Made by a program: the position numbers and the translations under genes
The notes under the pieces: model-generated
Databases searched by the model: none
Seen by the model: only the letters and a program-made list of their open reading frames with translations
What the model was told of the DNA's origin: nothing
In this document: positions 5,506 to 60,642 of the stretch, in pieces
Position numbering within the stretch: the first letter of the stretch is position 1
Layout of the letters: each line of letters begins with the position of its first letter
Origin: a virus
DNA length: 64,000 nucleotides
Virus genome (UHGV): UHGV-1351982
Strand: one strand, 5' to 3'

Positions 5506-5948
5506 TTAAAATTAAACTAACTCATCCAGATTGCATGCCAAAGATTGGCTCTGATGATGCCGCAGGTATGGATCTGCGTGCGTTCTTCGGCACTAACCTT
5601 GCAGCAGATTTACGTGCTATTGCACCAGGCAAATCCCTTATGATTGACACCGGTGTTGCGGTGGAAATTCCGCGAGGTTGGTTTGGTTTGGTAGTTCCTC
5701 GCAGCTCTTTAGGTAAGCGTAAACTGATGATCGCAAATACCGCAGGAGTGATCGACTCAGACTACCGTGGTACTATTAAGATGAACCTTTATAACTACGG
5801 TTCTGAAATGCAAACTCTGGAGAATTTCGAGAGACTTTGTCAGCTAGTAGTACTACCACACTACTCAACTCATCATTTTGAAATCGTTGACGAACTAGAG
5901 GAGACTGATCGTGGAGAAGGCGGCTTTGGAAGCTCAGGAAGTAAATAA
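5502..5948 (+). CDS. dut: dUTP pyrophosphatase
   Basis: dUTPase motifs AGMDLRA, PRSSLG, GVIDSDYRG; 148 aa. Confidence 0.85.
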   Translation: MIKIKLTHPDCMPKIGSDDAAGMDLRAFFGTNLAADLRAIAPGKSLMIDTGVAVEIPRGWFGLVVPRSSLGKRKLMIANTAGVIDSDYRGTIKMNLYNYGSEMQTLENFERLCQLVVLPHYSTHHFEIVDELEETDRGEGGFGSSGSK

Positions 5949-6180
5949 TTATAACTATTCAGATCCTAATATGGTAGGCAATTTTGAGCAGTCAAATACT
6001 TATCATGTTGCAGTTGCTGAACCTAACCTGAATAATGTAGTTCTTAAGGTAGATCGTGAAGGTAACGTAATCCATTGGGATGAAGAAGCTTTTGTCGAAT
6101 TATGTAGTAAGTCTGATGATCCTACACTTAGAACTATGTTGGCAGTGTTTAACTTAGGTATTATTGCTGGAAGCAGATAA
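5911..6180 (+). CDS. hypothetical protein (GTG start, overlaps dut end)
   Basis: ORF only; ORF-track start is a GTG codon; weak. Confidence 0.3.
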   Translation: MEKAALEAQEVNNYNYSDPNMVGNFEQSNTYHVAVAEPNLNNVVLKVDREGNVIHWDEEAFVELCSKSDDPTLRTMLAVFNLGIIAGSR

Positions 6181-6184
6181 TAAT

Positions 6185-6218
6185 AAACCCCAGTGGATTT
6201 CCACTGGGGTTTTCTTTT
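6185..6218. terminator. bidirectional terminator hairpin (CCCCAGTGG-ATTT-CCACTGGGG, A-run before and T-run after)
   Basis: Perfect 9-bp stem between convergent genes ending at 6180 and 6217. Confidence 0.65.
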
Positions 6219-7431
6219 ACTTATCAAGTAATTGTTTTACCAATTTCTTAAGTTCATCAATTTCTTGCTGTTGCTTTTCAACAACTTCATTAAGTTCATT
6301 AAAAGCATTAACTAGGAGAGCGGTAACACCGCTATAACTTACACCTAAATACTCGCTGTTAGAGATTTTATAAACAGCCTCCGGCAAAACTGCCTGTACA
6401 TCCTGAGCTATTACACTTGCTTCCTCAGAATAAATAGAGTGTTCATCTTCATCAAGATTATTACGTTTAAAATAAGTATAACCCTTAATAGATTTAACTT
6501 TCTCTCTTGCTGTTTTAATCTCTTTTAAATTGGCTTTTAATCTAATATCAGAAGTGCTAACCCATTGAACGCAAGACGCATATCCAGCATCATTAAATGT
6601 GTAGATTGCACCTTTTATGTTAAAATGAGCCTCACAACCCCCGGCACTATATCTAACAACATCAAGGCCAGCAGCCCAGTCACCACCCCATCTAACTACT
6701 TTAAACACGTTTGAGGCAGCATCATCACCTGGTAATTCAACAAGAAGGCCACAAGCGCGATCGGCTTCAGCCTTAGCACGATTTGCCTCAGTAGTAGCAT
6801 CTACAGCCTTATCTCCTGCTTCTACAGCAGAACCAGCCGCATTAGTTTCTGATTCTTTAGCATTTAATTCTGATTGTTTAGCGGAAGCAGCATGTTCTCC
6901 AGCAGTTGTAGCAGCAGCTTCTGCACCTGCTTTTGCTGTTTCAGCACCAGTCTTAGCAGTTTCTGCAGCTGTCTGAGCTTGTTGAGCCGCAGTTTTAGCT
7001 TGTTCGGCAAGTCTACGACTGGTCTCCGCATTTTGAGCAGCTAATTCAGCAGAATTCCTGAATCCTTTAGATTCTTCCGCCGATGTAGCGGATGCTTCAG
7101 CACTCTTTTGTGACAGACCAGCTTGTCTCTCAGCTTCCGCGGCAGATGCCGCAGATTGAGTTGCAGATGTTTCAGAAGAAGTAGCATAAATTGCAGCTAG
7201 GTTCTCCGAGTCCTTAGCATTTGTTTCAGATTCTTTTGCTGCAATCTCAGAATCTTTTGCTGCCGCAGCAGAAGAAGCAGAGGCTTCTACAGCAGCAGTT
7301 AATTCACCAGCAGTAATAGAACTAATAGAATTACCTAAAACTACTGTATATTTAGGATACTTACTAGCAGTAGTTGTAGTGTCATCTATATTCAGAATCT
7401 GCTGTACAATAATTTTAGTTTTAAGTGCCAT
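6217..7431 (-). CDS. ltf: short lateral (L-shaped-type) tail fiber with C-terminal intramolecular chaperone domain
   Basis: Ala-rich repetitive N-terminal part; C-terminal about 130 aa with SDIRLK and EAVY.. motifs resembling self-cleaving intramolecular chaperone (S74-like) domains; position before collar/pb4 as in T5. Confidence 0.55.
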   Translation of the reverse strand: MALKTKIIVQQILNIDDTTTTASKYPKYTVVLGNSISSITAGELTAAVEASASSAAAAKDSEIAAKESETNAKDSENLAAIYATSSETSATQSAASAAEAERQAGLSQKSAEASATSAEESKGFRNSAELAAQNAETSRRLAEQAKTAAQQAQTAAETAKTGAETAKAGAEAAATTAGEHAASAKQSELNAKESETNAAGSAVEAGDKAVDATTEANRAKAEADRACGLLVELPGDDAASNVFKVVRWGGDWAAGLDVVRYSAGGCEAHFNIKGAIYTFNDAGYASCVQWVSTSDIRLKANLKEIKTAREKVKSIKGYTYFKRNNLDEDEHSIYSEEASVIAQDVQAVLPEAVYKISNSEYLGVSYSGVTALLVNAFNELNEVVEKQQQEIDELKKLVKQLLDK

Positions 7432-12766: not shown

Positions 12767-13377
12767 AGACTTTCCCTCAAGGAAAGTGAAATACCAGTAT
12801 ATGTACCATTACTATTTAACGTAGAGCCGAAGCTGTCTCCGTTCATTAATTTAGTTCTAAATAGAATACCATTAAATACCGGTTTCTCACTACCCGTAGT
12901 AGTAATGAATAGATCAGGGTAAACACTTATATTCCAAGTATTTCCTACTGTGTTGATAGAAGTGATTTTGTACACTTTTGGGTGGTTGGACAATTTAAAT
13001 AAATCGCCTGGTTTAGGCAGTCCACGAAGTGTACCTTTAGTGTCCATAATAACTGTTGAACCTTTTTGTCCAGCAGGAATATTTACAGCACTAGTATCAC
13101 CACGAACTCGGAAAGCTTCATATTGTGGTAATAACACATCAATATAGCTACCTGTTCTTTTGTAATCTAGAATGAATGAATCTAATTTAGCAAATTCATC
13201 TGGGAATAATTCTGGATAAGAGATATTAATACCCCAATATTGAGCAGACACCTTAACCTCCCTAACTTTACCATTAGGTAATTCATCACGAATCATAGGG
13301 TCATTGTCTACTAAGTTAACGCTTTCAAAACCTAACCCTGATAGCTCTGGGTTCGTGTATGGGTCTGGTAGTCTCAT
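12763..13377 (-). CDS. distal tail protein (T5 pb9-like, Dit)
   Basis: 204 aa, same as T5 pb9; located between tape measure and hub. Confidence 0.6.
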   Translation of the reverse strand: MRLPDPYTNPELSGLGFESVNLVDNDPMIRDELPNGKVREVKVSAQYWGINISYPELFPDEFAKLDSFILDYKRTGSYIDVLLPQYEAFRVRGDTSAVNIPAGQKGSTVIMDTKGTLRGLPKPGDLFKLSNHPKVYKITSINTVGNTWNISVYPDLFITTTGSEKPVFNGILFRTKLMNGDSFGSTLNSNGTYTGISLSLRESL

Positions 13378-13403
13378 AGTTAATTTCTCCTCTTAATAAC
13401 AAT

Positions 13404-13432
13404 ATTATAATAGGATTGGAAAATTTTATCAA
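13404..13432 (-). promoter_or_regulatory. sigma70-like promoter (TTGATA-N17-TATAAT) upstream of the pb9-like gene
   Basis: Perfect -10 and near-consensus -35 on minus strand, followed by RBS AAGAGGAG and ATG at 13377. Confidence 0.45.
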
Positions 13433-13454
13433 GAAATTTTTATTTTTCCATAAA

Positions 13455-13480
13455 GAAAAGGAGGACATAAAGTCCTCCTC
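13455..13480 (-). terminator. rho-independent terminator after tape measure gene
   Basis: Hairpin GGAGGAC-TTTATG-TCCTCC followed by U-run on minus-strand RNA. Confidence 0.55.
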
Positions 13481-13485
13481 CAGTA

Positions 13486-16400
13486 TTAAGAATTACCAAG
13501 TGATTTCAGGGTGGTTCCATTCTCATTAAGAGCCTGTTCCACGGCATCCCTGAAAGCAGCACTATTGCTCGAAGCAAAATCTCGGAAGCTAGCCGCATCC
13601 ATCGTACTGATGTTCAGCACAATAGGTCTACCCGATGTGCCTTTTGAAGATCCTTTGAGTTCATCAGTAGGGGTAGCCTTCATCGGAACCATAGGAGTGA
13701 TTACTTCGGTACCATGCTCACCCATCTGGTAACTAACTCCAGGATACATATTACCACCTTCTGCACGAGGTACGAAAGAGTTAGCATTACCAATCCCTTG
13801 ATCTCCTCGAATATAAGAAAGTTCACCTGCGTTAGCCGACATAGAAACGTCTACATTCTTCTGGCGCTCTCCAAGAGTTAAGTAACCCGCTGTCTCAGCA
13901 CCAGAGTCTCCAATAGAAGACATACCAGATGCAGAGGATGCTTGAGCAAGAGCCATAGCACCTGCTAAACCAGCCGCAACCATCAGAGGAATAGAGAATG
14001 GATACGGAACAGCTGTTGCTGCTTGCATCACCGCTACTGCCGTCTGGATAATGATTTGCTTCTTAGCTGCATCTTGCTGGATCTTGAGCTTTTCAGCCTC
14101 TAACTTCTTGATCTTAGCTTTGGATTGCTCAGATTTACCATCACGTTTCTGTTCTGCTGCAATAGCTGCATCAATAGCACTTACCTGTTGACCAACACTA
14201 TACTGAATCATTGAAGACACAGTTTGCATACCAGCCGCTACTAGAGAAGTGGTATCCAGAGATCCTTGTGAGAACTGGATCATAGCGTTAGTTAGGTTAC
14301 CCATGCTTTGTGCTACAGCGGTTGCTTCGGAGTTCAGTTCAGACAGCTTAGAAATAGCCTGGTCATAGGACGCCATTCTATTCTGCATATCTGCGAAGTT
14401 TTTATCTTCTCCAGTTAATCCAGTAGTAGGAGTATACGTAGCCCCTACAGCCGCACCTACAGAAGACTGCATTTCTGCATCGCGCTGTACTCTTAAAGCT
14501 GCGAGCTGGGCTCTAGTTTCTGCTAGCTTTTTATTATACTCTAACTGAGCAGCAGCATTCCCTAAAGTTTTTTGCTTAAGGTCTTCGAATAGCTGGATTT
14601 GCTCCTTGATACGTTCCGCAGCTCCCATTAAAGGATTTGCGGTAAATTTCCTTTGTTGCTCCTCTTCCCTGCCAGCAGCCATTTCCCTTTGCTGATCCTG
14701 ACGGAATTTCCAGATTTCACGTTCAATTTGTGCCTGAGCACGTCTTGATTGTTCAGCTTCCTTATGCTTATCAACCTGTTTGGAGTACCATTCATACTTT
14801 TCTTTCTCGACAGTCAGTTCAAGGTTCAACTGAGCTAAACGATATTGAGTATCTGTCATAGTACGGTTATTCAGGAGAGCAATTTCACGATCAACACCAA
14901 GAATCTTATCGGTATAGTCCTTAACCTTCTTCTGGGCTTCCATACCCTGGTTAGTAATCTTGATACGTTCTAACTGAATCTTAGCTATTTCACCTTCGAT
15001 TGCTTTGTTACCTTTGTTAGTTTCTAGGACACGCTTAAGAGCTGCTTCCTGTTCTTCTAACTGTTGAATTTCCAAACGTCTACCAGCTTCCTGTGCTTTC
15101 TCTTTGTCCTTAGTCTGGTTATACACTTCGGCAATCTTCTGCTGAACTTCTAACTGATTCTTAGTCTCATTACCAGTTAATTTTACATAACCAGCAAGAG
15201 CTTGTGAAGCAGTCTTCATCTCACTAAGAGTATTATATCCTAAGTTCAGGCTCTTAACATACTCATCAGCATTTTTACCAGTACCAGCAGAAAGAGACTC
15301 AATAGTCTTAATCGTATCTGATAGGGATGCACTAGTTTTAGCCGCAGTATTAGTATTCTGAGCAATGTTCTGGATATCATTAGCTAAGTCGCTAGCAGTT
15401 TTCTTAGCTTGGTCATACGCTTTCTGCTGTTCTGTCAATCCTTTCAGAGTTGCAGAGTTAAAGTCATAAACCGCATCAGGATCATTCATATCCTTCTGCA
15501 GATTAATCTGCTTCTGAAATTCTGGATTAGCCTTAGCAGCCGCAGCACCCGCAGCTTGATATGCAGATTTCCATGCACCTAAATTATCGGTTGAATCAGT
15601 AACTTCCTTATCCAAACGTTCTACTTGGAGTGCCATAGCCGCAGTTTCAGCTACGAACTTCTTGTTTTCCTCAGAAGCACCAAGAGCCGCAGCACTTACC
15701 GGAACACCCTGAGCCACAGAACGAATTGCACCTGCAGTAAAGAAGTCAGCCTGTTCCATACGCTTGTCTAGATCAGCTTTTAACTTATTACGCTTTTCTA
15801 GAGATTCTTTATACATATCAAGAGCTTTATTATACCCTTCCTCAGAAGCGGAAAGACTTAAAGCTACAGCGCCAACGTTAGTTGGGTCAATCTGACGGTT
15901 AGTTTCTTCCTGTGCTCTAGCAGCAGAAGCTGAGATAGATGCTTGAGAAGTATAGAATACTGCGTTAATAGAATCAATTACCGGACCTAAATACTTAGCA
16001 GCAGCCTGTTGAACCTTTCTCAGTGCAGCATCAGCATTAGCAGCAAACTGTTCCCATGGAGTTGCGCGAAGTACATCATCTAGGTAGCCGAAACGTTTAG
16101 TAGATTCAGCGATTACTGCGTTAGCATATGCTTGTTGCTTCTGGAAAGTAGATAGACTATTAACGTTATATGTAATACCTGTGTTAGCAGCATTTAACTG
16201 TTTAACATAGTCAGCATAAGCATCGTTAAGACGTATAGTAACACCAAGTTCGTCCAGAAGTTCGATTTCTTGTTTAGATACACCCTTGATTACACGGTTA
16301 AGTGCATCAGTCATATCAACACCAAGAACAGCAGCAGCACGACGAGCTACTAGACCAAATTTATTAAGTTGTTCCGCATCGAATCCATATGCAGAAGCAG

Positions 16401-17166
16401 AGGATGCCTGTCTCATTGCTTCTTCGAAGGAGATTGCGTAACCAGCAGCCTCTTGTAGAGATCTAGCTAGAGTTTGTACCGGAGTACCTGTTTGAGTACC
16501 AACAATAGTACCAAACTTCTCAAGACGGTTTAACTGGTCACCCATCTTAAGCTGTTCAAATGCAGATTGTAGAACGAACACGTTAGATGCGATAGCAGCG
16601 TACATAAGAGGTAAACCACCACCCACTTTAGCCATAGCTGCGAAGTCACGAGTAGCACCACGTGCTGAGCCAGAAGTATTACCAATTGCACGACTAGCAC
16701 GTCCTGCAGCGGTAGTTGTATCATTAAAGCCTCTAGCAGTATTACCTAGGGCTCGGTTAGTATCATATAATCTATCTTGAACTTTTTCAGTTGCAGCAGC
16801 TACATCATTACCCATCGCCTTAACAGATTTACCAACATGTGTAAATCCAGACTCTAGCTTCTCAGATACCTCGATCATAGCAAGGGCAAGATCATCTAGC
16901 TTATCACCAATACCCTCAATGGATTTAGTGATACCAGCCATACCTCTGCTAGCCTGCATTTTAGTTAGACTTTTAGCTGCTCTATCCGCCGCCCTCTCAA
17001 TGGAGTAAAGAGTTTTGGGCATTTTTCCTAACTGCTCATTAGTCAGTTCGGAAGCGGCAGCAGCATTTTCTAACGCATCGGAAACGTTCTCAATAGATTT
17101 TGCAGTACGGGTTGCCCCTTTCTGCTTTACATCTATAAGTAGTTCTCGTATTAGCTTATCAGTCAT
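13486..17166 (-). CDS. pb2: tail tape measure protein (T5 pb2-like)
   Basis: 1226 aa, extensive coiled-coil/Ala-Gln-rich sequence, hydrophobic Gly/Ala-rich segment, position in tail module. Confidence 0.85.
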   Translation of the reverse strand: MTDKLIRELLIDVKQKGATRTAKSIENVSDALENAAAASELTNEQLGKMPKTLYSIERAADRAAKSLTKMQASRGMAGITKSIEGIGDKLDDLALAMIEVSEKLESGFTHVGKSVKAMGNDVAAATEKVQDRLYDTNRALGNTARGFNDTTTAAGRASRAIGNTSGSARGATRDFAAMAKVGGGLPLMYAAIASNVFVLQSAFEQLKMGDQLNRLEKFGTIVGTQTGTPVQTLARSLQEAAGYAISFEEAMRQASSASAYGFDAEQLNKFGLVARRAAAVLGVDMTDALNRVIKGVSKQEIELLDELGVTIRLNDAYADYVKQLNAANTGITYNVNSLSTFQKQQAYANAVIAESTKRFGYLDDVLRATPWEQFAANADAALRKVQQAAAKYLGPVIDSINAVFYTSQASISASAARAQEETNRQIDPTNVGAVALSLSASEEGYNKALDMYKESLEKRNKLKADLDKRMEQADFFTAGAIRSVAQGVPVSAAALGASEENKKFVAETAAMALQVERLDKEVTDSTDNLGAWKSAYQAAGAAAAKANPEFQKQINLQKDMNDPDAVYDFNSATLKGLTEQQKAYDQAKKTASDLANDIQNIAQNTNTAAKTSASLSDTIKTIESLSAGTGKNADEYVKSLNLGYNTLSEMKTASQALAGYVKLTGNETKNQLEVQQKIAEVYNQTKDKEKAQEAGRRLEIQQLEEQEAALKRVLETNKGNKAIEGEIAKIQLERIKITNQGMEAQKKVKDYTDKILGVDREIALLNNRTMTDTQYRLAQLNLELTVEKEKYEWYSKQVDKHKEAEQSRRAQAQIEREIWKFRQDQQREMAAGREEEQQRKFTANPLMGAAERIKEQIQLFEDLKQKTLGNAAAQLEYNKKLAETRAQLAALRVQRDAEMQSSVGAAVGATYTPTTGLTGEDKNFADMQNRMASYDQAISKLSELNSEATAVAQSMGNLTNAMIQFSQGSLDTTSLVAAGMQTVSSMIQYSVGQQVSAIDAAIAAEQKRDGKSEQSKAKIKKLEAEKLKIQQDAAKKQIIIQTAVAVMQAATAVPYPFSIPLMVAAGLAGAMALAQASSASGMSSIGDSGAETAGYLTLGERQKNVDVSMSANAGELSYIRGDQGIGNANSFVPRAEGGNMYPGVSYQMGEHGTEVITPMVPMKATPTDELKGSSKGTSGRPIVLNISTMDAASFRDFASSNSAAFRDAVEQALNENGTTLKSLGNS

Positions 17167-17186
17167 TTATTTTTCCCAATAAAAAA

Positions 17187-17211
17187 GGCTCTGGGCAAAT
17201 CACCCAGAGCC
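17187..17211 (-). terminator. hairpin GGCTCTGGG-CAAATCA-CCCAGAGCC in conserved intergenic element upstream of pb2
   Basis: 9-bp stem; same flanking 25-nt sequence CATTTATTTTTCCCAATAAAAAAGG recurs at 22186-22210. Confidence 0.5.
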
Positions 17212-17246
17212 AAGCCTCATCGTGGAACGCCCATTGGAGGAAACTT

Positions 17247-17615
17247 TTACTGAGCTCGAGATCTAGCATGCGGTTTAATGTTCGGAGTACGACCATTAGG
17301 TTTACTATGCTTCTCGGCTCTCTTACGAGCTGCATCTACAGCTTTCGAATCAAATATATTGATTATGTGTAGAACAAACTCTTTCTCTATGGGATCAGTA
17401 ATCCCATAGATATCAAATAAAACACCTAATGCACTTTTGTCTTTTCCTATAAATATAGGAAAATCGCCTGGTATGAAGCAGTCAATAAGACTATTATAAA
17501 TATTCATACTAGTAGATACAATAGGTGGAAAATCTTCGAGTTCAACAGGCATTGCCTTAGGATCAGGTTCAATACCAAGTGACTCACAAAGCATTAAATA
17601 TTGTTGTTTTGTCAT
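17247..17615 (-). CDS. putative tail assembly chaperone (downstream ORF)
   Basis: 122 aa between major tail gene and tape measure; its frame stays open 29 codons upstream of its ATG and overlaps the preceding ORF. Confidence 0.4.
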   Translation of the reverse strand: MTKQQYLMLCESLGIEPDPKAMPVELEDFPPIVSTSMNIYNSLIDCFIPGDFPIFIGKDKSALGVLFDIYGITDPIEKEFVLHIINIFDSKAVDAARKRAEKHSKPNGRTPNIKPHARSRAQ

Positions 17616-17676
17616 TTTAGATGCCGAGGATTTAATGCATTTATCAGCAAAATCGGCAACAGCATCTAGTAACTGC

Positions 17677-18081
17677 TTACGCTTTTGAGCTACGAAAAGT
17701 GTCTAAGTGGAACACTGTCTGGTTGATCCAAGAATCAAACGCAGCAGAGTTCTGCATAAGCATGATAGCGTTATCGCGACTAAATGGAACTTCAGTAGTA
17801 GGATCAGCCTCAGTTTCGATAAGCATCAGCTTCTCAACATCTCCAATCGTCAAGCCAGTCCAGCCAGCAATTGCAGTATCAACGAAAGCTTCAATAAACT
17901 TATCATCATCCTGAACCTGAATCATAGTACCGTTAACCCACTCGTCACGCTTAGCGGAAGAGATAACACGCTTAGACGCAGCACGAGACATGTAGTTCAG
18001 TTGCAGCTTGAAGTTAGGCATACCTGGGTAAGCCAGCTCAATAGTACGAGTTTCAAGGGTAATATCTTTTAAATTGATCAT
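17677..18081 (-). CDS. putative tail assembly chaperone (upstream ORF)
   Basis: 134 aa, acidic; canonical position of siphovirus chaperone gene pair. Confidence 0.45.
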   Translation of the reverse strand: MINLKDITLETRTIELAYPGMPNFKLQLNYMSRAASKRVISSAKRDEWVNGTMIQVQDDDKFIEAFVDTAIAGWTGLTIGDVEKLMLIETEADPTTEVPFSRDNAIMLMQNSAAFDSWINQTVFHLDTFRSSKA

Positions 18082-18977
18082 TTCTTTATTTCTCCAAAGA
18101 AGTCGATTCTTACCGGATCAGAGTCTGCAGTAGGGATTACATCCCATTCAACTCTGTATATATCCGAGAATTGTAGGCGTTTTGTTATACGTGCTGAAGG
18201 AAAATCAATCGAAATATGTTCATTTCGGATGGTTAATGGTATGTCAGTTTCGGGTTCAATATTATAAAACATATCGCCAGCAAATCGCTTGGTGTAGTAA
18301 AATGCAATTGTTGCCGAAGCATTCATTTCATTAACATAAGCTCTCTTATTATTATATATTTTGTTTATGTCAAATACGCTTTTATCTTCTCTCCAAGAAC
18401 ATTGTTGCTGGAATGACATAGAAGCGGATAAAAGAGCCGGTAAAACGTTACTGTTAGTAGATACTCTAGGAGGACTATATGACATAACTTCACCCTGAAC
18501 AATAGAACCAGCAGGAGTAAAAGTAGACACCTCAGAGAACTTACCAGATTCAATTCCTACGTTTAGAATAGGAACGCTTTTATCTAGAGAAAAGTCTACA
18601 GTAGATACATAGCAATTCTCAAAATACACACAGTTATTATCTTTATTAACTATGTATATATTAAACATTGTTGGCTCAATATTTGTACTATAAAGTGGTA
18701 GTAGGAATGTGTTACCCTCTCGGTCAAAGCCCATCCATTCAAAGAAGTTAGCTTCAGTAAGGGTATTACTAAAATTTATAGCCAGCGATATTGAAGATGG
18801 AGTTTGTGCATTAATAATAGAGTCAGCATAGTTGGTTCTACGATGTATAGTCCTACGAAGAGTTTTAAATTCCTCATAGGACGTATTGATATCGTAATTT
18901 GACAGGGCATCAAAATGATAAGCCCTGCCATCGTACTCAACTATAACTTTTGACTCCCTCATTAGAGAGTAGTACAT
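18078..18977 (-). CDS. minor tail protein (T5 p140-like)
   Basis: 299 aa immediately downstream of major tail tube gene; assignment by synteny only. Confidence 0.4.
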   Translation of the reverse strand: MYYSLMRESKVIVEYDGRAYHFDALSNYDINTSYEEFKTLRRTIHRRTNYADSIINAQTPSSISLAINFSNTLTEANFFEWMGFDREGNTFLLPLYSTNIEPTMFNIYIVNKDNNCVYFENCYVSTVDFSLDKSVPILNVGIESGKFSEVSTFTPAGSIVQGEVMSYSPPRVSTNSNVLPALLSASMSFQQQCSWREDKSVFDINKIYNNKRAYVNEMNASATIAFYYTKRFAGDMFYNIEPETDIPLTIRNEHISIDFPSARITKRLQFSDIYRVEWDVIPTADSDPVRIDFFGEIKK

Positions 18978-18981
18978 TTAA

Positions 18982-20391
18982 TTAGCCACCAGAAGCAGTA
19001 ACTGTAATGCTCTTAGTACCTTCTACACCAGAACCATCTTTAGCTACAGCTTTCACAGTAACTGCACCAGTCTTAGAAGCATCAGCGGTTAGTAACCCAG
19101 AAGTTGCATCAATAGTGGCAGCAGTACCAGAGGAAATAGACCAAGTTACTTCCTTATTAGTAGCTTCAGCAGGTAAAACATCTACAGTCATCTGAAGAGT
19201 TGCACTATTCTTGACGGAAGTTGCATCACCCGCAGATTTAACAGTAATACCTGTTACTTTTACTGGAGCTGCTTTACCACCGTCACCAGTTGCAATCAGA
19301 TTTGCAATAGTAGCTTTGGTGTACTTATTAGAGAAACCAAGATAACCTTCATCACCAGTATCCAGATCAGTAGGAATTGCTTTGAACTCTACAGAAGTAC
19401 CAAGTACATCGTCAGTCTCAATAGTTGGGATGTTTACGTGGGCTTGCTTAGCAACCAGAACAGCAGCAGGGCGCTCATCATCATATTCACCCCCAAGTAC
19501 TAGAGCGATTTCGAAACGGTTAACTACTTTCAGGGTCTTAATTAGATCTTTGTACAGATCCATAGAACCTAGAGCTTTATCGTTAAGATAAGCAGTTAGA
19601 GAACCAGTTAGTTCGAATGCACCAGTAAATGAACCGATTGGGATGTTAACACGGGACATAACGTTCGGAGTCAGGTAGGTGATGTTGTTGTTGATTGTAA
19701 AACTACCACCAGTGATCGGAATGTCATATGCCTTACCAGTATCCATATCCTTAATTTTGAGGATAGTCAGTTTGTTCTTGATATAAGAACCCTGGATAGT
19801 CATGTAAGTTTCATCATCAATACCTACAGTATCAGGATCAAATGGAGCAGCATCCAGAGGGATCAGCTGGTTACCATTACCTGACCAAGTTACACGACCG
19901 ATATCTTCGATATCAACGTTTACTTCAGCCTGGTTGATCTGGCAGGAATCGATGTAGCTCCATGCTTTATCAGTAAGGATGTAAATATGTAGCATTGCCA
20001 GTTCGTGGTATGCGTTATCCTTAAAGTTAACCATGAAGTTAGTTTCGTTAGTGTGTGCACCTGTATCACCATCTAGGTTGATAGGCTTACCACTAGAAAG
20101 AGCATGCCACAGCATGTAGTCCGGAACGATCTGCTTACTCGTAGTCTTGTCTAAGTAAGGCAGGATGTAAGTAGAGAAACTCCACTCAGCTGCGTTCAGG
20201 GAGTCGTTGAAACGTTTTGAACCACGAGTTGGACGCGGACCAGCTTCGTTAACAGTAATATCGGTTGAGTTACTGTCCTGACCCCAAGAAATATCATCTT
20301 GAACTAGAATCTCTTGCGTGTTTTCTTTGGTGTGACCAGACTTAACCGTAGACACGAAGATTCGAGTATTACGTAATAGTTGTAAAGACAT
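18982..20391 (-). CDS. pb6: major tail tube protein with C-terminal Ig-like (Big_2-like) domain (T5 pb6-like)
   Basis: 469 aa; C-terminal VTGITVKSAGDATSVKNSATLQMTVDVLPAEATNKEVTWSISSG.. is Ig-like; synteny. Confidence 0.75.
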   Translation of the reverse strand: MSLQLLRNTRIFVSTVKSGHTKENTQEILVQDDISWGQDSNSTDITVNEAGPRPTRGSKRFNDSLNAAEWSFSTYILPYLDKTTSKQIVPDYMLWHALSSGKPINLDGDTGAHTNETNFMVNFKDNAYHELAMLHIYILTDKAWSYIDSCQINQAEVNVDIEDIGRVTWSGNGNQLIPLDAAPFDPDTVGIDDETYMTIQGSYIKNKLTILKIKDMDTGKAYDIPITGGSFTINNNITYLTPNVMSRVNIPIGSFTGAFELTGSLTAYLNDKALGSMDLYKDLIKTLKVVNRFEIALVLGGEYDDERPAAVLVAKQAHVNIPTIETDDVLGTSVEFKAIPTDLDTGDEGYLGFSNKYTKATIANLIATGDGGKAAPVKVTGITVKSAGDATSVKNSATLQMTVDVLPAEATNKEVTWSISSGTAATIDATSGLLTADASKTGAVTVKAVAKDGSGVEGTKSITVTASGG

Positions 20392-20417
20392 TTATATATA
20401 TTCTCCTAATCTGTAAC

Positions 20418-20903
20418 TTATCTGCGTAATGCACGCTTAGGTGGCATATAACGCACTGTTACATTTATTTCCGCTAAACCATATGGGGCCAGTAGACCTT
20501 CATCTGTAGCTACTGAGGTGATGTTCATATCAGTTGCCTCACATGGGAAGGTCGATCCATTAGGTTTACTAACAGTATATTCTAAATTTCCACCTGTGTC
20601 AATGACGGTTTTTATGTCAGCTACGAGTTTTTCAAGTTGCTCTTGAATATCTGTTTTCTCTTTGTCATACACGAGGATTGGAAGTTCTAAAAACATCCAC
20701 TGTTGGCCTGAAGGAAGATACTGCCCAGTTTCAGTTCCGATATGGACTGCCACATAAGGAAATTCTCGGATTTCCTCAAATTTATAAGTTTGACGAGAAA
20801 CGTTTCCATAAAGGTTATTGAAATACTCGTCAGGTTGTGAACCATCCATTTGTGTGGCGATTCGGTCAACCACTGCTTGTGCAATACTTGTTCTGTGATC
20901 CAT
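20418..20903 (-). CDS. putative tail terminator/completion protein
   Basis: 161 aa directly upstream of major tail tube gene. Confidence 0.4.
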   Translation of the reverse strand: MDHRTSIAQAVVDRIATQMDGSQPDEYFNNLYGNVSRQTYKFEEIREFPYVAVHIGTETGQYLPSGQQWMFLELPILVYDKEKTDIQEQLEKLVADIKTVIDTGGNLEYTVSKPNGSTFPCEATDMNITSVATDEGLLAPYGLAEINVTVRYMPPKRALRR

Positions 20904-20906
20904 TTA

Positions 20907-21674
20907 TTAGGTTCCTTGATTAACCTTGATTTTATATCTAGAATGAATCAGGTCTCTTGCAGCTTTTGCGATTGCTTCCCCAATAAGTTTTTGAGGGTTT
21001 CGAGCGCCAGGGTAAGGTCGTAGAGAAAGTCTTCGATATGTAGAAACTGCGGGGTTGAACACAGAATAAGGACGAACCATATAATTATACGTCACATTCA
21101 GCTCTGGAGCACCTTTACTAGTTTCTGCATCACGTAGCATAACGTCTTTAATCTTTAAGGAGTTAGCAAAGCGACCAGTTCTGAACTTCAATGGTGCTCC
21201 TGCTTTTTTCATATCCTTGATTAAGTATTCCTTAGCTACTATCTCAAGAATAGCACGCATGTTACTATTCGATACGAAACGACCGGAAGCACCTGTTACT
21301 GCACCAGAATAGCCATCTTCAGTATCTCTAGGATCTCCAAAGTTTACCTGAACTCTACCGGTAGAACGTTTTTTACCAACAGCAGAACGTTTACCTGCGG
21401 TTGCTTGAATTAGATTCTCTAGAGCACCTAAATCACCAGAAAGATCTAAGTTAGAAGAGACGGCCTTCAATATAGATGCTGTCCTAACATTTAATAAGTC
21501 TTGAGATACTGGTTTTGAGAATTTGAAAGATACCTGTGCAACTGTACCATCTCTTGTAGGATCTTTCAAACCTGTCTCAACTGTATACACAACAGTATTC
21601 TTATTATTCTCAGATCGTCCTGCAGTATCTAGCTGCTCTTTAATAATTTGTCTAGCTAGATCAGAAAGAGCCAT
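20907..21674 (-). CDS. putative neck/tail completion protein
   Basis: 255 aa in head-tail joining region. Confidence 0.4.
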   Translation of the reverse strand: MALSDLARQIIKEQLDTAGRSENNKNTVVYTVETGLKDPTRDGTVAQVSFKFSKPVSQDLLNVRTASILKAVSSNLDLSGDLGALENLIQATAGKRSAVGKKRSTGRVQVNFGDPRDTEDGYSGAVTGASGRFVSNSNMRAILEIVAKEYLIKDMKKAGAPLKFRTGRFANSLKIKDVMLRDAETSKGAPELNVTYNYMVRPYSVFNPAVSTYRRLSLRPYPGARNPQKLIGEAIAKAARDLIHSRYKIKVNQGT

Positions 21675-22186
21675 TACACTCTCCTATAGACTTCGATGAT
21701 TGTACGAATATGCTCTGGAATACCAGACTTAGTATTGTTAAACGTAACTGTCTCACCACCAATAGTCTTGGCTTGACGATAATCTTGCTTATGCCAGTGA
21801 TCTACTAACAGACATGCTGCCAGTTTAAGATCTTCAGGCATTGGATTGAAACCACCTTGAGTATACTCTACATCCATGTATCCTTCAGGAGGATTAAACT
21901 TAAGGAGAATAACACCATCAGGATACAGTTTAAACTGTTCCGGGTCTATTTCATTCTCGTTAATAGTCATCTTTGTAATAGATGTGGCTGAGGGAGAACT
22001 CAGAAAATATTTTCTGCGAGTAGGTTTTGTGTTGATTAGCTGATCTATCGCATCCGCATCATCCATACCTAAAAGGCTAGTAATCAGCGTATTGGCAGCC
22101 TTAATCATCATGTCTACTCCAGATTCGATTTCAGGTCGTTTTAGGCTACCGTATAGTCTATAATCTTCAGCTGTGATGATTTGCAT
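21674..22186 (-). CDS. putative head completion/connector protein
   Basis: 170 aa directly downstream of major capsid gene. Confidence 0.4.
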   Translation of the reverse strand: MQIITAEDYRLYGSLKRPEIESGVDMMIKAANTLITSLLGMDDADAIDQLINTKPTRRKYFLSSPSATSITKMTINENEIDPEQFKLYPDGVILLKFNPPEGYMDVEYTQGGFNPMPEDLKLAACLLVDHWHKQDYRQAKTIGGETVTFNNTKSGIPEHIRTIIEVYRRV

Positions 22187-22206
22187 TTATTTTTCCCAAT
22201 AAAAAA

Positions 22207-22224
22207 GGAGAGCCGAAGCTCTCC
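22207..22224 (-). terminator. rho-independent terminator after major capsid gene (GGAGAGC-CGAA-GCTCTCC plus U-run)
   Basis: 7-bp GC stem followed by TTTTTTATTGGG on minus-strand RNA; plausible attenuation after a highly expressed gene. Confidence 0.6.
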
Positions 22225-22245
22225 TTATCGGCTGAAAAGCCTGTA

Positions 22246-23619
22246 TTAAGCAGCGTAAGCACCAGATACAACGCCGTTTTCGAAGTAACGTTGCAGGTTA
22301 ACACGCTGAGTAACGTAGTATGCGTCACGCTGTTTTCCAGCTTGGCGCTCACGTTCAACAGTAACAGCACGCTGACGCGGCATTACGAAGTTATCTTTGT
22401 AAACAATAACTGCGAATTCAGCGGAAGCAGCTTTAGCTGGGAAGTACTCAGAAACTACAACCGGTAGACCGTAAATACGACCAACCTGACCCTGCAGTTT
22501 AACAGCATCATTACCAACCTGGGCAACATCCTGCCATTCTTCATCTTCCAGCAGATCGTAGTAAGCATCCATAGATACGATCAGTACCAGTTTACTCAGT
22601 TTCAAACCATGACGGCCCAGTTTACGACGCAGCTTGGAGATAGTCTTAGCAGTTACCAGAACAGAACCGTCAGCTTTAGCTTCGGTAACAACCTTAGCAC
22701 CATCATCAGCAGCCAGTTTCAGCAGACCCTTAGGCTGACCAGTACCATTACCAGACATGAAAGCTTCTTCGATAGAAACAGCGTGTGCTTCGATCAGACG
22801 CTTACGCAGCAGAGGCAGCAGGGAGAAGATTGCATCTTCTTCAGTTTCATCAGTGATGAAGGATTTAGCAGCCAGCTTGTAAGTTTTGAAGCTGATTTCA
22901 GTCAGTTGACCTTTAACTTCGTCACCAACAGTTTCGTCAGTACCGAATTTGGAAGCGTCTACCCAAGTAGCACGACCAGCTTCTGGTTCAACGAGCATAG
23001 TAAGAATTTTGCTGGACATTGGCAGTTCATCGAACAGTGCACCAACTACCAGTTCCTTCTGCAGGTCACGGATAATACGGGTAGAGAAGATAGTTTCGTA
23101 TGCTTCGCTAGACATGGAAACGGAAGAAGAACCGTTAACAGCTTTAACGTGAGCCTTACCATGTTCAGTTTCGAATACGTCCTTCTCCATCATATAAGAC
23201 AGAAGAACCAGTTTCTCAACTTCATCCTCGAAAGCATCCTGAGTGCCATAAAGAGCTTTAGCTACGCTATCACCAACGAAGGAACGACCTTCACGAGCTG
23301 CCAACAGAGACTTGATTTCGTCCTGAAGACCAACGATGGTTTCCTGTTGCTTTTCTACAGTCTGTGCAAACAATTCTGCGCTCTTCTTAGACTTCTCGTC
23401 CAGGTTCTTAACCAGATCCAGAGCTTCTTCCAGACGCTTACGGTCTTCACCAACAGCTTTAGATACTAGGTCGTTCATACGAGCCAGTTCTTTTTCTTCC
23501 TGCTCTTCACGCAGACGCTTAGCTTCCGCAGCTTTCTGAGCAGCAGTCAGACCTTCCAGAGATTTAGCCAGATCACCCAGACCAAGTTCTTCCTTCAGCT
23601 TATTAATATCAATAGTCAT
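22246..23619 (-). CDS. pb8: major capsid protein precursor (T5 pb8-like)
   Basis: 457 aa; N-terminal coiled-coil delta domain (KLKEELGLGDLAKSLEGL..) followed by capsid body; downstream of protease. Confidence 0.85.
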   Translation of the reverse strand: MTIDINKLKEELGLGDLAKSLEGLTAAQKAAEAKRLREEQEEKELARMNDLVSKAVGEDRKRLEEALDLVKNLDEKSKKSAELFAQTVEKQQETIVGLQDEIKSLLAAREGRSFVGDSVAKALYGTQDAFEDEVEKLVLLSYMMEKDVFETEHGKAHVKAVNGSSSVSMSSEAYETIFSTRIIRDLQKELVVGALFDELPMSSKILTMLVEPEAGRATWVDASKFGTDETVGDEVKGQLTEISFKTYKLAAKSFITDETEEDAIFSLLPLLRKRLIEAHAVSIEEAFMSGNGTGQPKGLLKLAADDGAKVVTEAKADGSVLVTAKTISKLRRKLGRHGLKLSKLVLIVSMDAYYDLLEDEEWQDVAQVGNDAVKLQGQVGRIYGLPVVVSEYFPAKAASAEFAVIVYKDNFVMPRQRAVTVERERQAGKQRDAYYVTQRVNLQRYFENGVVSGAYAA

Positions 23620-23636
23620 TTTTAAATAATTCTCCG

Positions 23637-24269
23637 TTATTCTTTAACGTAGCCTAAAGCTATCGCAAGTTTTTCTAGTTCAGAAAGATTACGTTCTTGA
23701 GCTGGGACAGCCTTAGAACTTGTTGCAGTAAAAGATTTGCGCCATTCAGTGTAATCGTGGCCATTCATACTCTTAGCGAGGTTGAACGTTGAGTCCTGAT
23801 TACAAGGTACAGAAACTACCGAAACTTCGTATAGTTCTAAATCTTTAATAATAAATATGTCAGTAGCTTCATCCCATTCTGCGTCTAGGCAGCGGAATCC
23901 GATACTGAAGGTTTTCAGTACACCGTTTTTAATTAGTGAGAAGATAGCTGGATCAGAACTTTCATAAATCTCGCATTCAATTTCGAGACCCATTTCAGTA
24001 GGGTTAAGATCAATACACTTGCCGATTGGACGACGATGGTCGTGGCCGAAAAGAATAATCGGGTTTTTCATGTAGTTAGCAAGTGCATTAGACGTTTTCC
24101 ATGCCGAAGCAGGAATTACGTCACCAGCGCGATCTTTACTAATTGTATTAGCGAATCCACGGATTTTTACAACACCCTCTTTGGATTCGCTATCAATAGA
24201 CTTAATGTAAGCGTCTAAATGAACCGGTGCTGATTTTAACTTGTTATAGTCAATAGCAGCATTTGTCAT
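23637..24269 (-). CDS. pb11: prohead protease (T5 pb11-like)
   Basis: 210 aa with FGHDH motif of HK97-type prohead proteases; between decoration protein and capsid genes. Confidence 0.75.
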   Translation of the reverse strand: MTNAAIDYNKLKSAPVHLDAYIKSIDSESKEGVVKIRGFANTISKDRAGDVIPASAWKTSNALANYMKNPIILFGHDHRRPIGKCIDLNPTEMGLEIECEIYESSDPAIFSLIKNGVLKTFSIGFRCLDAEWDEATDIFIIKDLELYEVSVVSVPCNQDSTFNLAKSMNGHDYTEWRKSFTATSSKAVPAQERNLSELEKLAIALGYVKE

Positions 24270-59818: not shown

Positions 59819-59894
59819 TGGTAGTTAGTAGTGGATTTGAACCACTGTAGTCGCTCCGTATGAAGGAGGTGCATAACCTCTCTGCCAACTAACT
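59819..59894 (-). tRNA. tRNA, anticodon CAU (Met or Ile2), encoded CCA
   Basis: Manual fold: acceptor AGTTAGT/ACTAACT, T-arm AGTGG-TTCAAAT-CCACT, anticodon loop TTCATAC. Confidence 0.5.
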
Positions 59895-59990
59895 ATTATG
59901 TTTTACTAGACTAAGTAAGTATTCTTTATACTCTTTAGACCAATTAGCTTTTTTAAACTTTCCTGGACGCATAGTCTTACTTCCTAAATT

Positions 59991-60067
59991 TGGTACTCCG
60001 GGAGGGATTTAAACCCCCGATCTCTCGGTTATCAGCCGAGTGCTTTAGATCGCTAAGCTACCGAAGC
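59991..60067 (-). tRNA. tRNA-Ile (GAU), encoded CCA
   Basis: Manual fold: anticodon arm CTCGG-CTGATAA-CCGAG, T-loop TTTAAAT, acceptor GCTTCGG/CCGGAGT. Confidence 0.55.
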
Positions 60068-60068
60068 A

Positions 60069-60275
60069 TTAACATTTAATTGCAGAACGTTTACCATTTC
60101 TAGGCGCACCTGGAAGTCGTGCACGTTCTGCCATTCTTCGCTTAATCTTTGAGATATTTTCTAGTGTTTGTTCTTCAGGCTTAATACCTGAAACACTACA
60201 CCACTGATTACCATCCCATGCGGTAATGATCATAACACCATTGCCCATAATCTTTTCTGTGAAAGTAATTCTCAT
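60069..60275 (-). CDS. hypothetical small protein (68 aa)
   Basis: ORF between tRNAs. Confidence 0.35.
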   Translation of the reverse strand: MRITFTEKIMGNGVMIITAWDGNQWCSVSGIKPEEQTLENISKIKRRMAERARLPGAPRNGKRSAIKC

Positions 60276-60568
60276 TATAACAACTCGTCTAAGTAAGAGG
60301 TATACTGGTATTTAGCTTCACCAGTTTTATCTACTTCGACTTCTGTTCTAGGTACTTTTCGTACCAGACCGTGAATCATCTTATATTGAATAGATTTAGA
60401 TGGTTCGTGATCTTTAGGAAAGACCTGCTTAACTGTAACTACTTTAAATCCCTCACGTGGTGTTAGTACAACAACTTGATCACCTTCTTTGATTTTCCAA
60501 GACTCAGGAAATTCATAAGTGTAGCGTTGACCACCGGTAAGGAATATAACAGAAAGATAACGTTTCAT
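60275..60568 (-). CDS. hypothetical protein (97 aa)
   Basis: ORF after promoter and leader. Confidence 0.4.
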   Translation of the reverse strand: MKRYLSVIFLTGGQRYTYEFPESWKIKEGDQVVVLTPREGFKVVTVKQVFPKDHEPSKSIQYKMIHGLVRKVPRTEVEVDKTGEAKYQYTSYLDELL

Positions 60569-60598
60569 TTGGTTTTCCTCTCATTAATTTATATAAAC

Positions 60599-60627: not shown

Positions 60628-60642
60628 ATGAATTTTTAAATT

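What the first reader, a model, noticed from the sequence alone, without database searches (positions are those of the whole stretch)
17600..17710. Tail chaperone gene pair arranged for a possible +1 translational frameshift
Between the major tail and tape measure genes lie two small ORFs as in the G/GT chaperone pair of siphoviruses. The downstream frame stays open for 29 codons upstream of its ATG and overlaps the end of the upstream ORF (stop at 17677-17679), so a frameshift would fuse them. By my frame arithmetic the shift would be +1 rather than the usual -1, which is why I flag it.
Basis: inference. Interest (0 to 1): 0.35.

Follow-up and report, generated by a model that had tools for sequence, protein, structure and literature searches.

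The report
T5-type tail chaperone +1 frameshift site
Two small tail-assembly chaperone genes of this T5-like Salmonella phage are very probably joined into one protein when a few ribosomes slip one base forward at a conserved UUU-C. This forward slip is a rare form of the usual backward slip, and the phage T5 literature that I could reach only second hand reportedly found no frameshift signal.

Summary
On the minus strand, ORF G (18081..17677, 134 aa) is followed by ORF T (ATG 17615..17247, 122 aa). The T frame is +1 relative to G and is open for 29 codons before its ATG, overlapping G by 26 nt.

Being open is not significant by itself (P about 0.15). The comparative evidence is strong:
- The 61-nt "spacer" evolves as coding sequence in the T frame (synonymous:non-synonymous 19:3, against 1:23 and 3:19 in the other frames).
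- The ATG has no Shine-Dalgarno sequence and is Ile, Leu or Phe in Klebsiella and Vibrio relatives.
- T is +1 to G in 42 distinct junctions.
- All of these carry TTT CGN at the Phe codon that ends G's conserved core (window 17697..17692).
- Another 29 metagenomic relatives have T in the -1 frame. All those aligned at this codon (27) carry a canonical A_AAT_TTT heptamer there, and ten representatives share a downstream hairpin.

Most likely mechanism: tRNA-Phe slips from UUU to UUC in the P site, giving a 277-aa G-T fusion. This is untested experimentally. No stimulator is conserved.

The same fusion protein is already deposited for phage Sw2 (YP_009812293.1), and phage Shivani has a joined CDS. 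T5 itself and most relatives are annotated as two genes. This is a real, ordinary-function feature with an unusual recoding direction.

The parts
17677..18081 (-). ORF G, the tail assembly chaperone and homologue of T5.143. It is 134 aa. Its conserved core ends at Phe129-Arg130, followed by a short non-conserved tail (SSKA) and a TAA stop.
   Evidence: PHROG 313 'tail assembly chaperone' E=4e-35, profile positions 12-141 of 258.
17692..17697 (-). Proposed +1 shift site, TTT CGT. The UUU codon is 17697..17695, and the skipped or re-paired C is 17694. After the slip the A-site codon is GUA (17693..17691).
   Evidence: TTTCG is the longest invariant nucleotide run in a 7-genus alignment. It is present in all 42 distinct +1-class junctions, which include 13 lineages below 70% identity. 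In Vibrio phage 70E34-3 the permitted window is only AAC TTT CGT.
17677..17702 (-). Overlap window in which the shift must occur. The T frame opens at 17702 after TAG 17705..17703, and the G frame stops at 17679..17677.
17616..17693 (-). 26 codons (VAQKRKQLLDAVADFADKCIKSSASK) read in the T frame between the shift site and the annotated ATG. There is no ATG, GTG or TTG here. This stretch includes the 61-nt 'intergenic spacer' 17676..17616.
   Evidence: Variable sites by +1-frame codon position 1/2/3 are 5/26, 1/26 and 16/26. Within the spacer, synonymous:non-synonymous is 19:3 in this frame, against 1:23 and 3:19 in the other two. tblastn matches to Klebsiella and Vibrio phages start at residues 1-6 of this stretch. 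Alignment A2.
17247..17615 (-). ORF T as usually annotated (122 aa, homologue of T5.142). It is proposed to be the C-terminal domain of the G-T fusion. The fusion is 18081..17695 joined to 17693..17247, giving 277 aa.
   Evidence: PHROG 3914 (2e-57) and PHROG 313 positions 170-255. The 277-aa fusion is identical to YP_009812293.1 of phage Sw2. The ATG has no Shine-Dalgarno sequence: anti-SD duplex -1.7 kcal/mol, equal to background, against -4.2 to -7.3 for neighbouring genes.
17187..17211 (-). Intrinsic terminator-like hairpin after T and before the tape measure gene.
   Evidence: Compensatory changes across phages. T5 annotates a terminator at the equivalent place.
13486..17166 (-). Tape measure protein gene (pb2 homologue, 1226 aa). 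It is the expected binding partner of the chaperones.
18982..20391 (-). Major tail tube protein gene (pb6 homologue, 469 aa). It marks the upstream boundary of the chaperone module, together with p140 at 18977..18078.

Best explanation
The window comes from a T5-like Salmonella phage (Epseptimavirus). G and T form the phage's tail assembly chaperone pair. Most ribosomes translate G and stop at 17679..17677, giving a 134-aa chaperone. A minority shift frame while peptidyl-tRNA-Phe sits on UUU (17697..17695) in the P site. The tRNA anticodon GAA re-pairs one base forward on UUC (a G:C pair replaces the G:U wobble). The A site then reads GUA instead of CGU, and translation continues in the T frame to 17247. 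The product is a 277-aa G-T fusion (...HLDTF|VAQKRKQLLD...). By analogy with lambda gpG/gpGT, the G part would bind the tape measure protein and the T part would recruit the major tail protein. The low shift frequency would set the G:GT ratio.

Shown here: the frame relation, coding-type conservation of the pre-ATG stretch, nucleotide-level invariance of TTTCG, and homology to loci with a canonical -1 site at the same codon.

Inferred: that the event is ribosomal, that it is +1 at UUU_C, its efficiency, and the roles of the two products.
For: (1) T is +1 to G in the window, T5, Klebsiella Sugarlandvirus, four Vibrio phage genera, Aeromonas AhSzq-1 and a metagenomic clade. That is 42 distinct junctions.
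(2) All of them have TTT CG[T/A/C] at the Phe codon that ends G's conserved core. This holds for 13 of 13 lineages below 70% identity and 6 of 6 below 50%. In the same genes only 56% of Phe codons are TTT and 43% of Arg codons are CGN.
(3) The permitted windows intersect on N-1, TTT, CGN. The +1 frame usually opens 5 nt before TTT, and in L007 G stops right after CGT.
(4) Among 23 unique T5-like sequences the 'spacer' shows coding periodicity in the T frame and 19 synonymous to 3 non-synonymous codon variants, including a TCC to AGC serine switch. The one variable site in the overlap is non-synonymous for G (S/P) but synonymous for T.
(5) The window's ATG aligns with Ile, Leu or Phe in Klebsiella and Vibrio phages, and the start codons annotated there are non-conserved GTGs inside G. 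The ATG has no SD.
(6) G's residues after Phe-Arg are variable in length (0 to 28 aa) and not conserved.
(7) 29 metagenomic relatives have T in the -1 frame. The 27 that could be aligned at this Phe codon all carry GA A_AAT_TTT AC there, and in most the -1 frame opens at or within two codons of the heptamer. In ten representatives an 8-bp hairpin starts 8 nt downstream. The fusion junctions of both classes align (F-YWEQV... against F-VQEQR...).
(8) One PHROG profile (313, 258 positions) spans G and T.
(9) Independent annotators deposited exactly this fusion for Sw2, and Shivani has a joined CDS of +1-compatible length.
Against: There is no experimental evidence, and no proteomics or ribosome profiling was found.

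Known programmed +1 sites usually have a stop or rare codon in the A site, often with a Shine-Dalgarno stimulator. Here the A-site codon is a common sense codon (CGU). The phage itself encodes tRNA-Arg(ACG). No SD-like element or RNA structure is conserved around the site.

The invariant G after TTTC is not explained by the slip model alone.

A Met at the position of the window's ATG is common among relatives, and gene callers start many homologues there, so an independently initiated T cannot be excluded. T5.142 expressed alone is folded and biologically active as a Schlafen trigger.

The T5 reference analysis (Zivanovic 2014) is cited as finding no frameshift signal. I could not read it.

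No natural in-frame G-T fusion was found among the 150 best of 165 representative homologues.
Confidence: 0.75

Rival explanations
1. There is no recoding. G and T are two separate proteins, as in the T5 reference annotation, and T starts at its own ATG (17615). The open upstream stretch is incidental.
For: The ATG exists in all T5-like sequences, and a Met is frequent at this position in relatives. T5 and most records annotate two CDS. T5.142 alone is functional as a Schlafen trigger when expressed from a plasmid. An open 29-codon run is not rare by chance.
Against: It cannot explain the coding-type substitution pattern of the 61-nt spacer in the T frame. It also fails to explain protein-level conservation of the pre-ATG residues out to Vibrio phages, loss of the ATG in Klebsiella and Vibrio phages, the missing SD, the constant frame relation with invariant TTTCG, and the -1 heptamer at the same codon in relatives. 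A weaker version, in which T is also made alone alongside the fusion, is not excluded.
Confidence: 0.1
2. The fusion is made, but by another route into the same frame. Candidates are a -2 ribosomal shift (as proposed for phage Mu) or RNA polymerase slippage on the T run.
For: +1 and -2 give the same frame. T5-like phages have four U's (ACU UUU C), which offers some backward re-pairing. The phage literature has a -2 precedent in tail chaperone genes (Xu et al. 2004, from my own knowledge).
Against: Most +1-class lineages have only AAC UUU CGN, GGG UUU or UAC UUU. This gives no -2 re-pairing for either tRNA. A run of 3 to 4 T is far shorter than known transcriptional slippage sites (established knowledge). 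The only element common to all lineages is UUU followed by C, which is exactly what a +1 slip of tRNA-Phe needs.
Confidence: 0.07
3. The extension is translated by initiation at a non-canonical or lineage-specific start codon inside the overlap, giving a longer free-standing T (about 148 aa) without any fusion to G.
For: Gene callers find GTG starts in the overlap in Klebsiella, JSF12 and Gary phages. Several representative homologues are called with N-terminal extensions.
Against: The window and T5 have no ATG, GTG or TTG anywhere between the upstream stop and the ATG. The GTGs in other phages are at different positions and lack SD sequences. This model does not explain the fixed frame relation, the TTTCG invariance or the -1 heptamer class.
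Confidence: 0.05

Closest known systems
Phage lambda gpG/gpGT tail assembly chaperones (-1 programmed frameshift; Levin et al. 1993; Xu, Hendrix and Duda 2004, 2013, 2014; summarised in PMC5009743)
   Same: Two small ORFs lie just upstream of the tape measure gene. The downstream ORF has no dependable start. The shift site is near the 3' end of G. The expected products are a short abundant G and a rare G-T fusion, neither of which is in the virion.
   Different: The direction is +1, not -1. The site is UUU_C followed by a sense codon, not a G_GGA_AAG-type heptamer. No Pfam chaperone family matches. An extra gene (p140) separates the major tail gene from G.
Uncultured relatives of the same chaperone family in IMG/VR (for example L043, L063, L078)
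   Same: G and T are homologous (30-45% identity). The shift falls at the same Phe codon ending the motif W-x10-F, and the fusion junctions are alignable.
   Different: T is in the -1 frame. There is a canonical A_AAU_UUU heptamer, an 8-nt spacer and an 8-bp hairpin containing the G stop. G ends 5 codons after the site, and the T stop overlaps the tape measure start.
E. coli prfB (RF2) +1 programmed frameshift, CUU_UGA_C
   Same: A single P-site tRNA slips one base forward onto a codon it pairs with equally well or better.
   Different: prfB needs a stop codon in the A site and an upstream Shine-Dalgarno stimulator. Neither is present or conserved here.
Shift-prone UUU-pyrimidine sites in E. 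coli (Schwartz and Curran 1997; recalled from memory, not checked here)
   Same: tRNA-Phe(GAA) on UUU followed by C can move +1 to UUC at a low spontaneous frequency. This matches the low yield a G:GT system needs.
   Different: Those are error sites in reporters, not conserved functional signals.
+1 frameshifts in other phage structural genes: SPP1 gp17.1*, Listeria phage PSA cps and tsh (from memory), and the chaperone of haloarchaeal myovirus HSTV-2, 'very likely +1'
   Same: A forward shift is used to append a C-terminal extension to a tail-related protein. HSTV-2 is a precedent for +1 in a chaperone pair.
   Different: As far as I recall, the SPP1 and PSA sites place a stop codon in the A site (CCC_UAA/UGA type), and they modify virion proteins rather than chaperones. 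There is no sequence relationship.
GenBank/RefSeq annotation of phages Sw2 (YP_009812293.1, 'Tape Measure Chaperone Frameshift Product') and Shivani (AJA73579.1)
   Same: The Sw2 product is identical, residue for residue, to the fusion derived here. Shivani has a joined CDS of +1-compatible length.
   Different: These are annotation only. I found no published rationale, site or evidence. T5, STG2, ESCO30, the Klebsiella phages and most of the 446 near-identical records annotate two genes.

Membership tests
G/GT-type tail assembly chaperone pair with programmed frameshift | The gene pair lies between the major tail protein and tape measure genes. | tested here: met
   Order is MTP 20391..18982, p140 18977..18078, G, T, TMP 17166..13486. 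p140 lies between MTP and G.
G/GT-type tail assembly chaperone pair with programmed frameshift | The downstream ORF overlaps the end of G in another frame and lacks a conserved start of its own. | tested here: met
   There is a 26-nt overlap. The ATG at 17615 has no SD and is Ile, Leu or Phe in other genera. The residues before the ATG are conserved as protein. Caveat: Met is common at that position.
G/GT-type tail assembly chaperone pair with programmed frameshift | A canonical -1 slippery heptamer X_XXY_YYZ leads into the T frame. | tested here: not met
   T is in the +1 frame, and the -1 frame closes after 8 codons. The heptamer A_AAT_TTT is present at the homologous codon only in 27 aligned junctions of the 29 -1-class metagenomic relatives.
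G/GT-type tail assembly chaperone pair with programmed frameshift | Sequence membership in a described tail assembly chaperone family. | tested here: met
   PHROG 313 matches G at 4e-35 and T at 6e-16, on different parts of one 258-position profile. PHROG 3914 matches T at 2e-57. Pfam gives no hit, and there is no PDB relative by sequence.
G/GT-type tail assembly chaperone pair with programmed frameshift | Chaperone fold of G (spiral fold of Pell et al. 2013). | tested here: inconclusive
   The single-sequence AlphaFold2 model had mean pLDDT 34, so no fold search was run.
G/GT-type tail assembly chaperone pair with programmed frameshift | The fusion protein is produced, and both products are needed for tail assembly. 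| not testable with these tools
   This needs mass spectrometry, a western blot and genetics.
Programmed +1 ribosomal frameshift by P-site tRNA slippage (prfB type) | The tRNA on the P-site codon can re-pair in the +1 frame. | tested here: met
   UUU followed by C gives UUC for tRNA-Phe(GAA). This is invariant in all 42 +1-class junctions.
Programmed +1 ribosomal frameshift by P-site tRNA slippage (prfB type) | A slowly decoded A-site codon (stop or rare codon). | tested here: not met
   The A site holds CGU, CGA or CGC. The phage carries tRNA-Arg(ACG) at 61595..61669.
Programmed +1 ribosomal frameshift by P-site tRNA slippage (prfB type) | An upstream Shine-Dalgarno-like stimulator or a conserved RNA structure. 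| tested here: not met
   No SD-like motif lies within 25 nt upstream in the T5, Klebsiella or Vibrio lineages. The consensus fold of 13 lineages predicts 0 pairs.
Programmed +1 ribosomal frameshift by P-site tRNA slippage (prfB type) | Nucleotide conservation of the site beyond what the encoded protein requires. | tested here: met
   13 of 13 lineages have TTT (background 56%) and CGN (background 43% of Arg codons). TTTCG is the longest invariant run in alignment A3.
-2 frameshift in chaperone genes (phage Mu type) | A sequence that allows both tRNAs to re-pair two bases back. | tested here: not met
   The contexts AAC UUU CGN, GGG UUU and UAC UUU in most lineages allow no -2 re-pairing.

The most novel reading that the evidence does not exclude
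The whole T5 family (Demerecviridae) makes its G-T chaperone fusion by a stimulator-free +1 slip of tRNA-Phe at UUU_CGN with an ordinary sense codon in the A site. Its uncultured relatives use a classical -1 heptamer plus hairpin at the very same Phe codon. The family would then be a natural case of a recoding signal that changed direction in place. A one-base indel after a doubly slippery UUU would be enough, and L048 with A_AAT_TTT_CGT looks like an intermediate. As a corollary, T5.142, recently shown to trigger a bacterial Schlafen defence, would natively be the C-terminal domain of a rare T5.143-142 fusion rather than a free protein.
Probability: 0.6. Interest if true: 0.65.

Novelty: new member of a known kind. 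Interest (0 to 1): 0.45.

Why it matters
T5 is a classic model siphophage. Its chaperone genes are annotated as two proteins, and the reference analysis is cited as finding no frameshift signal. If the +1 shift is real, four things follow.

- The near-universal G/GT rule for long-tailed phages also covers T5.
- Hundreds of T5-like genome records, including many therapeutic-candidate Salmonella and E. coli phages, lack a CDS.
- The family offers a matched natural pair of -1 and +1 signals at one codon. This is useful for studying what sets the direction and efficiency of frameshifting without a stop codon or stimulator.
- Work that treats T5.142 as a free protein, such as the Schlafen trigger study, may need to consider the fusion and its low abundance.

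The biological function itself, tail assembly chaperoning, is ordinary.

Tried and rejected
- **Homologue search with the fusion:** The search for homologous proteins returned no hit, although the exact sequences are in that collection. I treat this as a tool limitation, not evidence.
- **Locus collection with G:** The search for related loci with the G alignment failed because no stretch was conserved enough. A single Vibrio G protein gave only three near-identical loci. The T alignment worked.
- **Structure:** the AlphaFold2 single-sequence model of G was unusable (pLDDT 34), so no fold search was made. The tool accepted no alignment built from loci.
- **PDB:** profile searches found nothing meaningful.
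- **RNA elements in the window:** Rfam found nothing in 13000..24000. No RNA structure downstream of the +1 site is conserved. The window alone folds modestly (z = -2.2), which I judge not meaningful. No SD-like stimulator is conserved.
- **Natural fusions:** none among the 150 best of 165 representative homologues. One 1455-aa hit is a repetitive chance match.
- **Other slip sites in the overlap:** AAA_G (17685..17682) is rejected because it is absent from other lineages and lies beyond the G stop in L003, L005 and L007. A shift at the stop codon (GCG_TAA) is rejected because no re-pairing is possible and it is not conserved.
- **Other routes:** transcriptional slippage and a -2 shift are rejected as explained under the rival explanations.
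- **Literature:** Zivanovic et al. 2014 could not be read. The genome announcements for Shivani and phiR2-01 say nothing about a frameshift.

Full report
**What the window is.** The region is 98.5% identical to Salmonella phages of the genus Epseptimavirus (T5-like, Demerecviridae), such as Sw2, STG2 and LVR16A. It is 80-90% identical to the T5 group. The tail genes lie on the minus strand: major tail protein 20391..18982, p140 baseplate tube protein 18977..18078 (Pfam PF23779), ORF G 18081..17677, ORF T 17615..17247, a terminator-like hairpin 17211..17187, and tape measure protein 17166..13486. T5 has the same order (T5.145.144.143.142.140), with a homing endonuclease (T5.141) inserted between T and the tape measure gene.

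**Checking the observation.** Translating all three minus-strand frames confirms three points. G ends with TAA at 17679..17677. T's frame is open from 17702, which is 29 codons before the ATG at 17615. T's frame is +1 (equivalently -2) relative to G. The -1 frame closes after 8 codons. An open run of 29 codons is not unusual on its own. The probability is about 0.15 from composition, and 13% of +1-frame open runs in neighbouring genes are at least that long. The arrangement is real but needs outside evidence.

**Is the stretch before the ATG translated?** A tblastn search with the whole 151-codon open frame hit 909 phage records. In Klebsiella (57% identity), Vibrio (29-42%) and Aeromonas phages the alignments begin at residues 1-6, far upstream of the window's Met.

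In the protein alignment the window's Met aligns with Ile, Leu, Phe, Phe and Met in five other genera. The start codons annotated there are GTGs at different places inside G, or an ATG 72 codons further down.

I compared 23 unique T5-like sequences (84-98% identical over this region, no indels). The 61-nt 'intergenic spacer' varies at T-frame codon positions 1/2/3 in 5/20, 1/20 and 15/21 sites. This is the same periodicity as in G (26, 4 and 89 of 128) and in T (18, 11 and 70 of 121). Codon variants are 19 synonymous to 3 non-synonymous in the T frame, against 1:23 and 3:19 in the other frames. Between the window and T5 there is even a TCC to AGC serine switch.

The only variable site inside the overlap changes G (Ser/Pro) but is silent in T. 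There is no ATG, GTG or TTG between the upstream stop and the ATG. The ATG has no Shine-Dalgarno sequence: the anti-SD duplex is -1.7 kcal/mol, which equals the background mean, against -4.2 to -7.3 for eight neighbouring genes. So the stretch is coding, and the only evident way into it is from G.

**Where the shift happens.** I collected loci from seven cultured lineages and 80 IMG/VR loci found with the T alignment. I then located G and T in each by local tblastn. This gave 71 distinct junctions in two classes.

In 42 junctions T is +1 to G. These cover the T5-likes, Klebsiella Sugarlandvirus, four Vibrio phage genera, Aeromonas AhSzq-1 and a metagenomic clade. Every one has TTT CG[T/A/C] at the Phe codon that ends G's conserved core (motif W-x10-F-R). 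After it, the G frame runs on for 0 to 28 non-conserved residues. The +1 frame usually opens only 5 nt before TTT. In Vibrio phage 70E34-3 G stops immediately after CGT. The windows therefore intersect on [N-1 codon, TTT, CGN].

TTTCG is the longest invariant nucleotide run in a 977-column alignment of seven genera. After reducing to lineages below 70% identity, 13 of 13 have TTT and CGN. In the same genes TTT makes up 56% of Phe codons and CGN 43% of Arg codons. The pattern also holds for 6 of 6 lineages below 50% identity. T-frame homology starts with the codon right after TTTC.

**The second class.** In 29 junctions, all uncultured, T is -1 to G. In the 27 that could be aligned at this Phe codon (L057 and L087 lack the W-x10-F motif), the sequence is GA A_AAT_TTT AC, a canonical X_XXY_YYZ heptamer. 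In most of them the -1 frame opens at or within two codons of the heptamer (in ten, a TGA immediately precedes the AAA), and G stops five codons later. In ten representatives an 8-bp hairpin, CAAGTAG-N12-CTACTTG, starts 8 nt downstream of the heptamer. The fusion junctions of the two classes align...LENF-YWEQV...LL.. against ...LDNF-VQEQR..L.. and ...LDTF-VAQKRKQLL... One locus, L048, has A_AAT_TTT_CGT with T in the +1 frame. The family therefore has a frameshift site at this codon, and the T5 branch uses it in the forward direction.

**Mechanism.** The only feature common to all +1 lineages is UUU followed by C. tRNA-Phe (anticodon GAA) reads UUU with a G:U wobble and would pair perfectly with UUC one base forward. 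That UUU-pyrimidine sites are prone to +1 shifts in E. coli is something I recall from the literature and did not check here. After the slip the A site reads GNN (Val, Glu or Ala) instead of CGN.

A -2 shift is unlikely because most lineages have AAC, GGG or UAC before UUU. Polymerase slippage is unlikely on a run of three or four T.

Some things do not fit the known +1 paradigm. The A-site codon is a common sense codon, and the phage itself encodes tRNA-Arg(ACG). No SD-like element or RNA structure is conserved. The invariant G is explained only if Arg is needed in G, in which case the required C would force CGN over AGR, or if the codon's identity matters for the shift. Efficiency is unknown. 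A low spontaneous rate would suit a G:GT system, since lambda's ratio is about 30:1.

**What is already known.** The 277-aa fusion derived here (18081..17695 joined to 17693..17247) is identical to YP_009812293.1/AXY85088.1 of phage Sw2, annotated 'Tape Measure Chaperone Frameshift Product'. Seven alternative junctions are absent from the collection. Phage Shivani (2015) also has a joined CDS of +1-compatible length. T5, STG2, ESCO30, the Klebsiella phages and most other records have two separate CDS.

I found no paper that describes the site. The Sugarland genome announcement states that T5's chaperone has no predicted frameshift signal and cites Zivanovic et al. 2014, which I could not read. 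A 2026 study shows that T5.142, expressed alone, triggers a bacterial Schlafen nuclease, and it treats T5.142 as a stand-alone chaperone. A +1 shift in a chaperone pair has been suggested for the archaeal virus HSTV-2. PHROG 313 is one 258-position chaperone profile that G and T match in its two halves.

**Caveats.** No experimental evidence exists. A Met at the window's ATG position is frequent in relatives, so some independent initiation of T cannot be excluded. No natural in-frame G-T fusion was found. The G fold could not be modelled.

**Verdict.** The feature is a tail assembly chaperone frameshift of the known G/GT kind. It uses a rare forward direction at a conserved UUU_CGN. It is already present in two database annotations but is absent from the T5 literature I could reach and from most genome records. 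My confidence that a G-T fusion is made by a +1 ribosomal shift at 17697..17694 is about 0.75.

Noticed in passing
window 17215..17243 (minus strand): A 29-nt sequence, TTTCCTCCAATGGGCGTTCCACGATGAGG, lies between the T stop and the terminator hairpin. Its core TCCTC...CCACG is conserved from T5 to Klebsiella and Vibrio phages. It contains an anti-Shine-Dalgarno-like CCUCC, occurs once in the window and has no Rfam match. It is absent from metagenomic relatives, where the T stop overlaps the tape measure start.
   Followed up: partly
window 17164..17188 and 22184..22208 (minus strand): An identical 25-nt cassette, CCTTTTTTATTGGGAAAAATAAATG (terminator tail, spacer and start codon), follows two different terminator hairpins. 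One copy precedes the tape measure gene and the other precedes the gene starting at 22186.
   Followed up: partly
IMG/VR loci L043-L091 (for example L043 1474..1520, L063 1474..1520): Uncultured relatives carry a textbook -1 frameshift cassette in the homologous chaperone pair: A_AAT_TTT, an 8-nt spacer, then the 8-bp hairpin CAAGTAG-N12-CTACTTG, which includes the G stop codon. L048 (1491..1502) combines A_AAT_TTT with CGT and has T in the +1 frame, a possible intermediate.
   Followed up: partly
window 59819..63562 (minus strand): A cluster of 13 tRNA genes (Met, Ile, Thr, Gly, Gln x2, Arg-ACG, His, Ser x2, Leu, Ala x2). tRNA-Arg(ACG) decodes the CGN codon that sits in the A site of the proposed shift site. 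The cluster probably continues beyond the end of the window.
   Followed up: no
L008 (T5, NC_005859) 5778..6530, compared with window 17167..17246: T5 has an endonuclease gene (T5.141) inserted between T and the tape measure gene. The window and Sw2 lack it. In several Vibrio phages a roughly 250-aa hypothetical gene sits at that position.
   Followed up: no
L006 (Aeromonas phage AhSzq-1, MG676224): The chaperone and tape measure region of this deposited 'partial genome' is broken by many stops. Only 2 ORFs of at least 60 aa occur in 2.7 kb, and the tape measure is annotated as a 143-aa fragment. This suggests sequencing errors, although it still shows TTT CGA at the site.
   Followed up: no
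tool behaviour: the search for homologous proteins returned no hit for the G-T fusion, although G, T and the fusion are all present as exact sequences in the same collection. A negative result from that tool should not be read as absence.
   Followed up: yes
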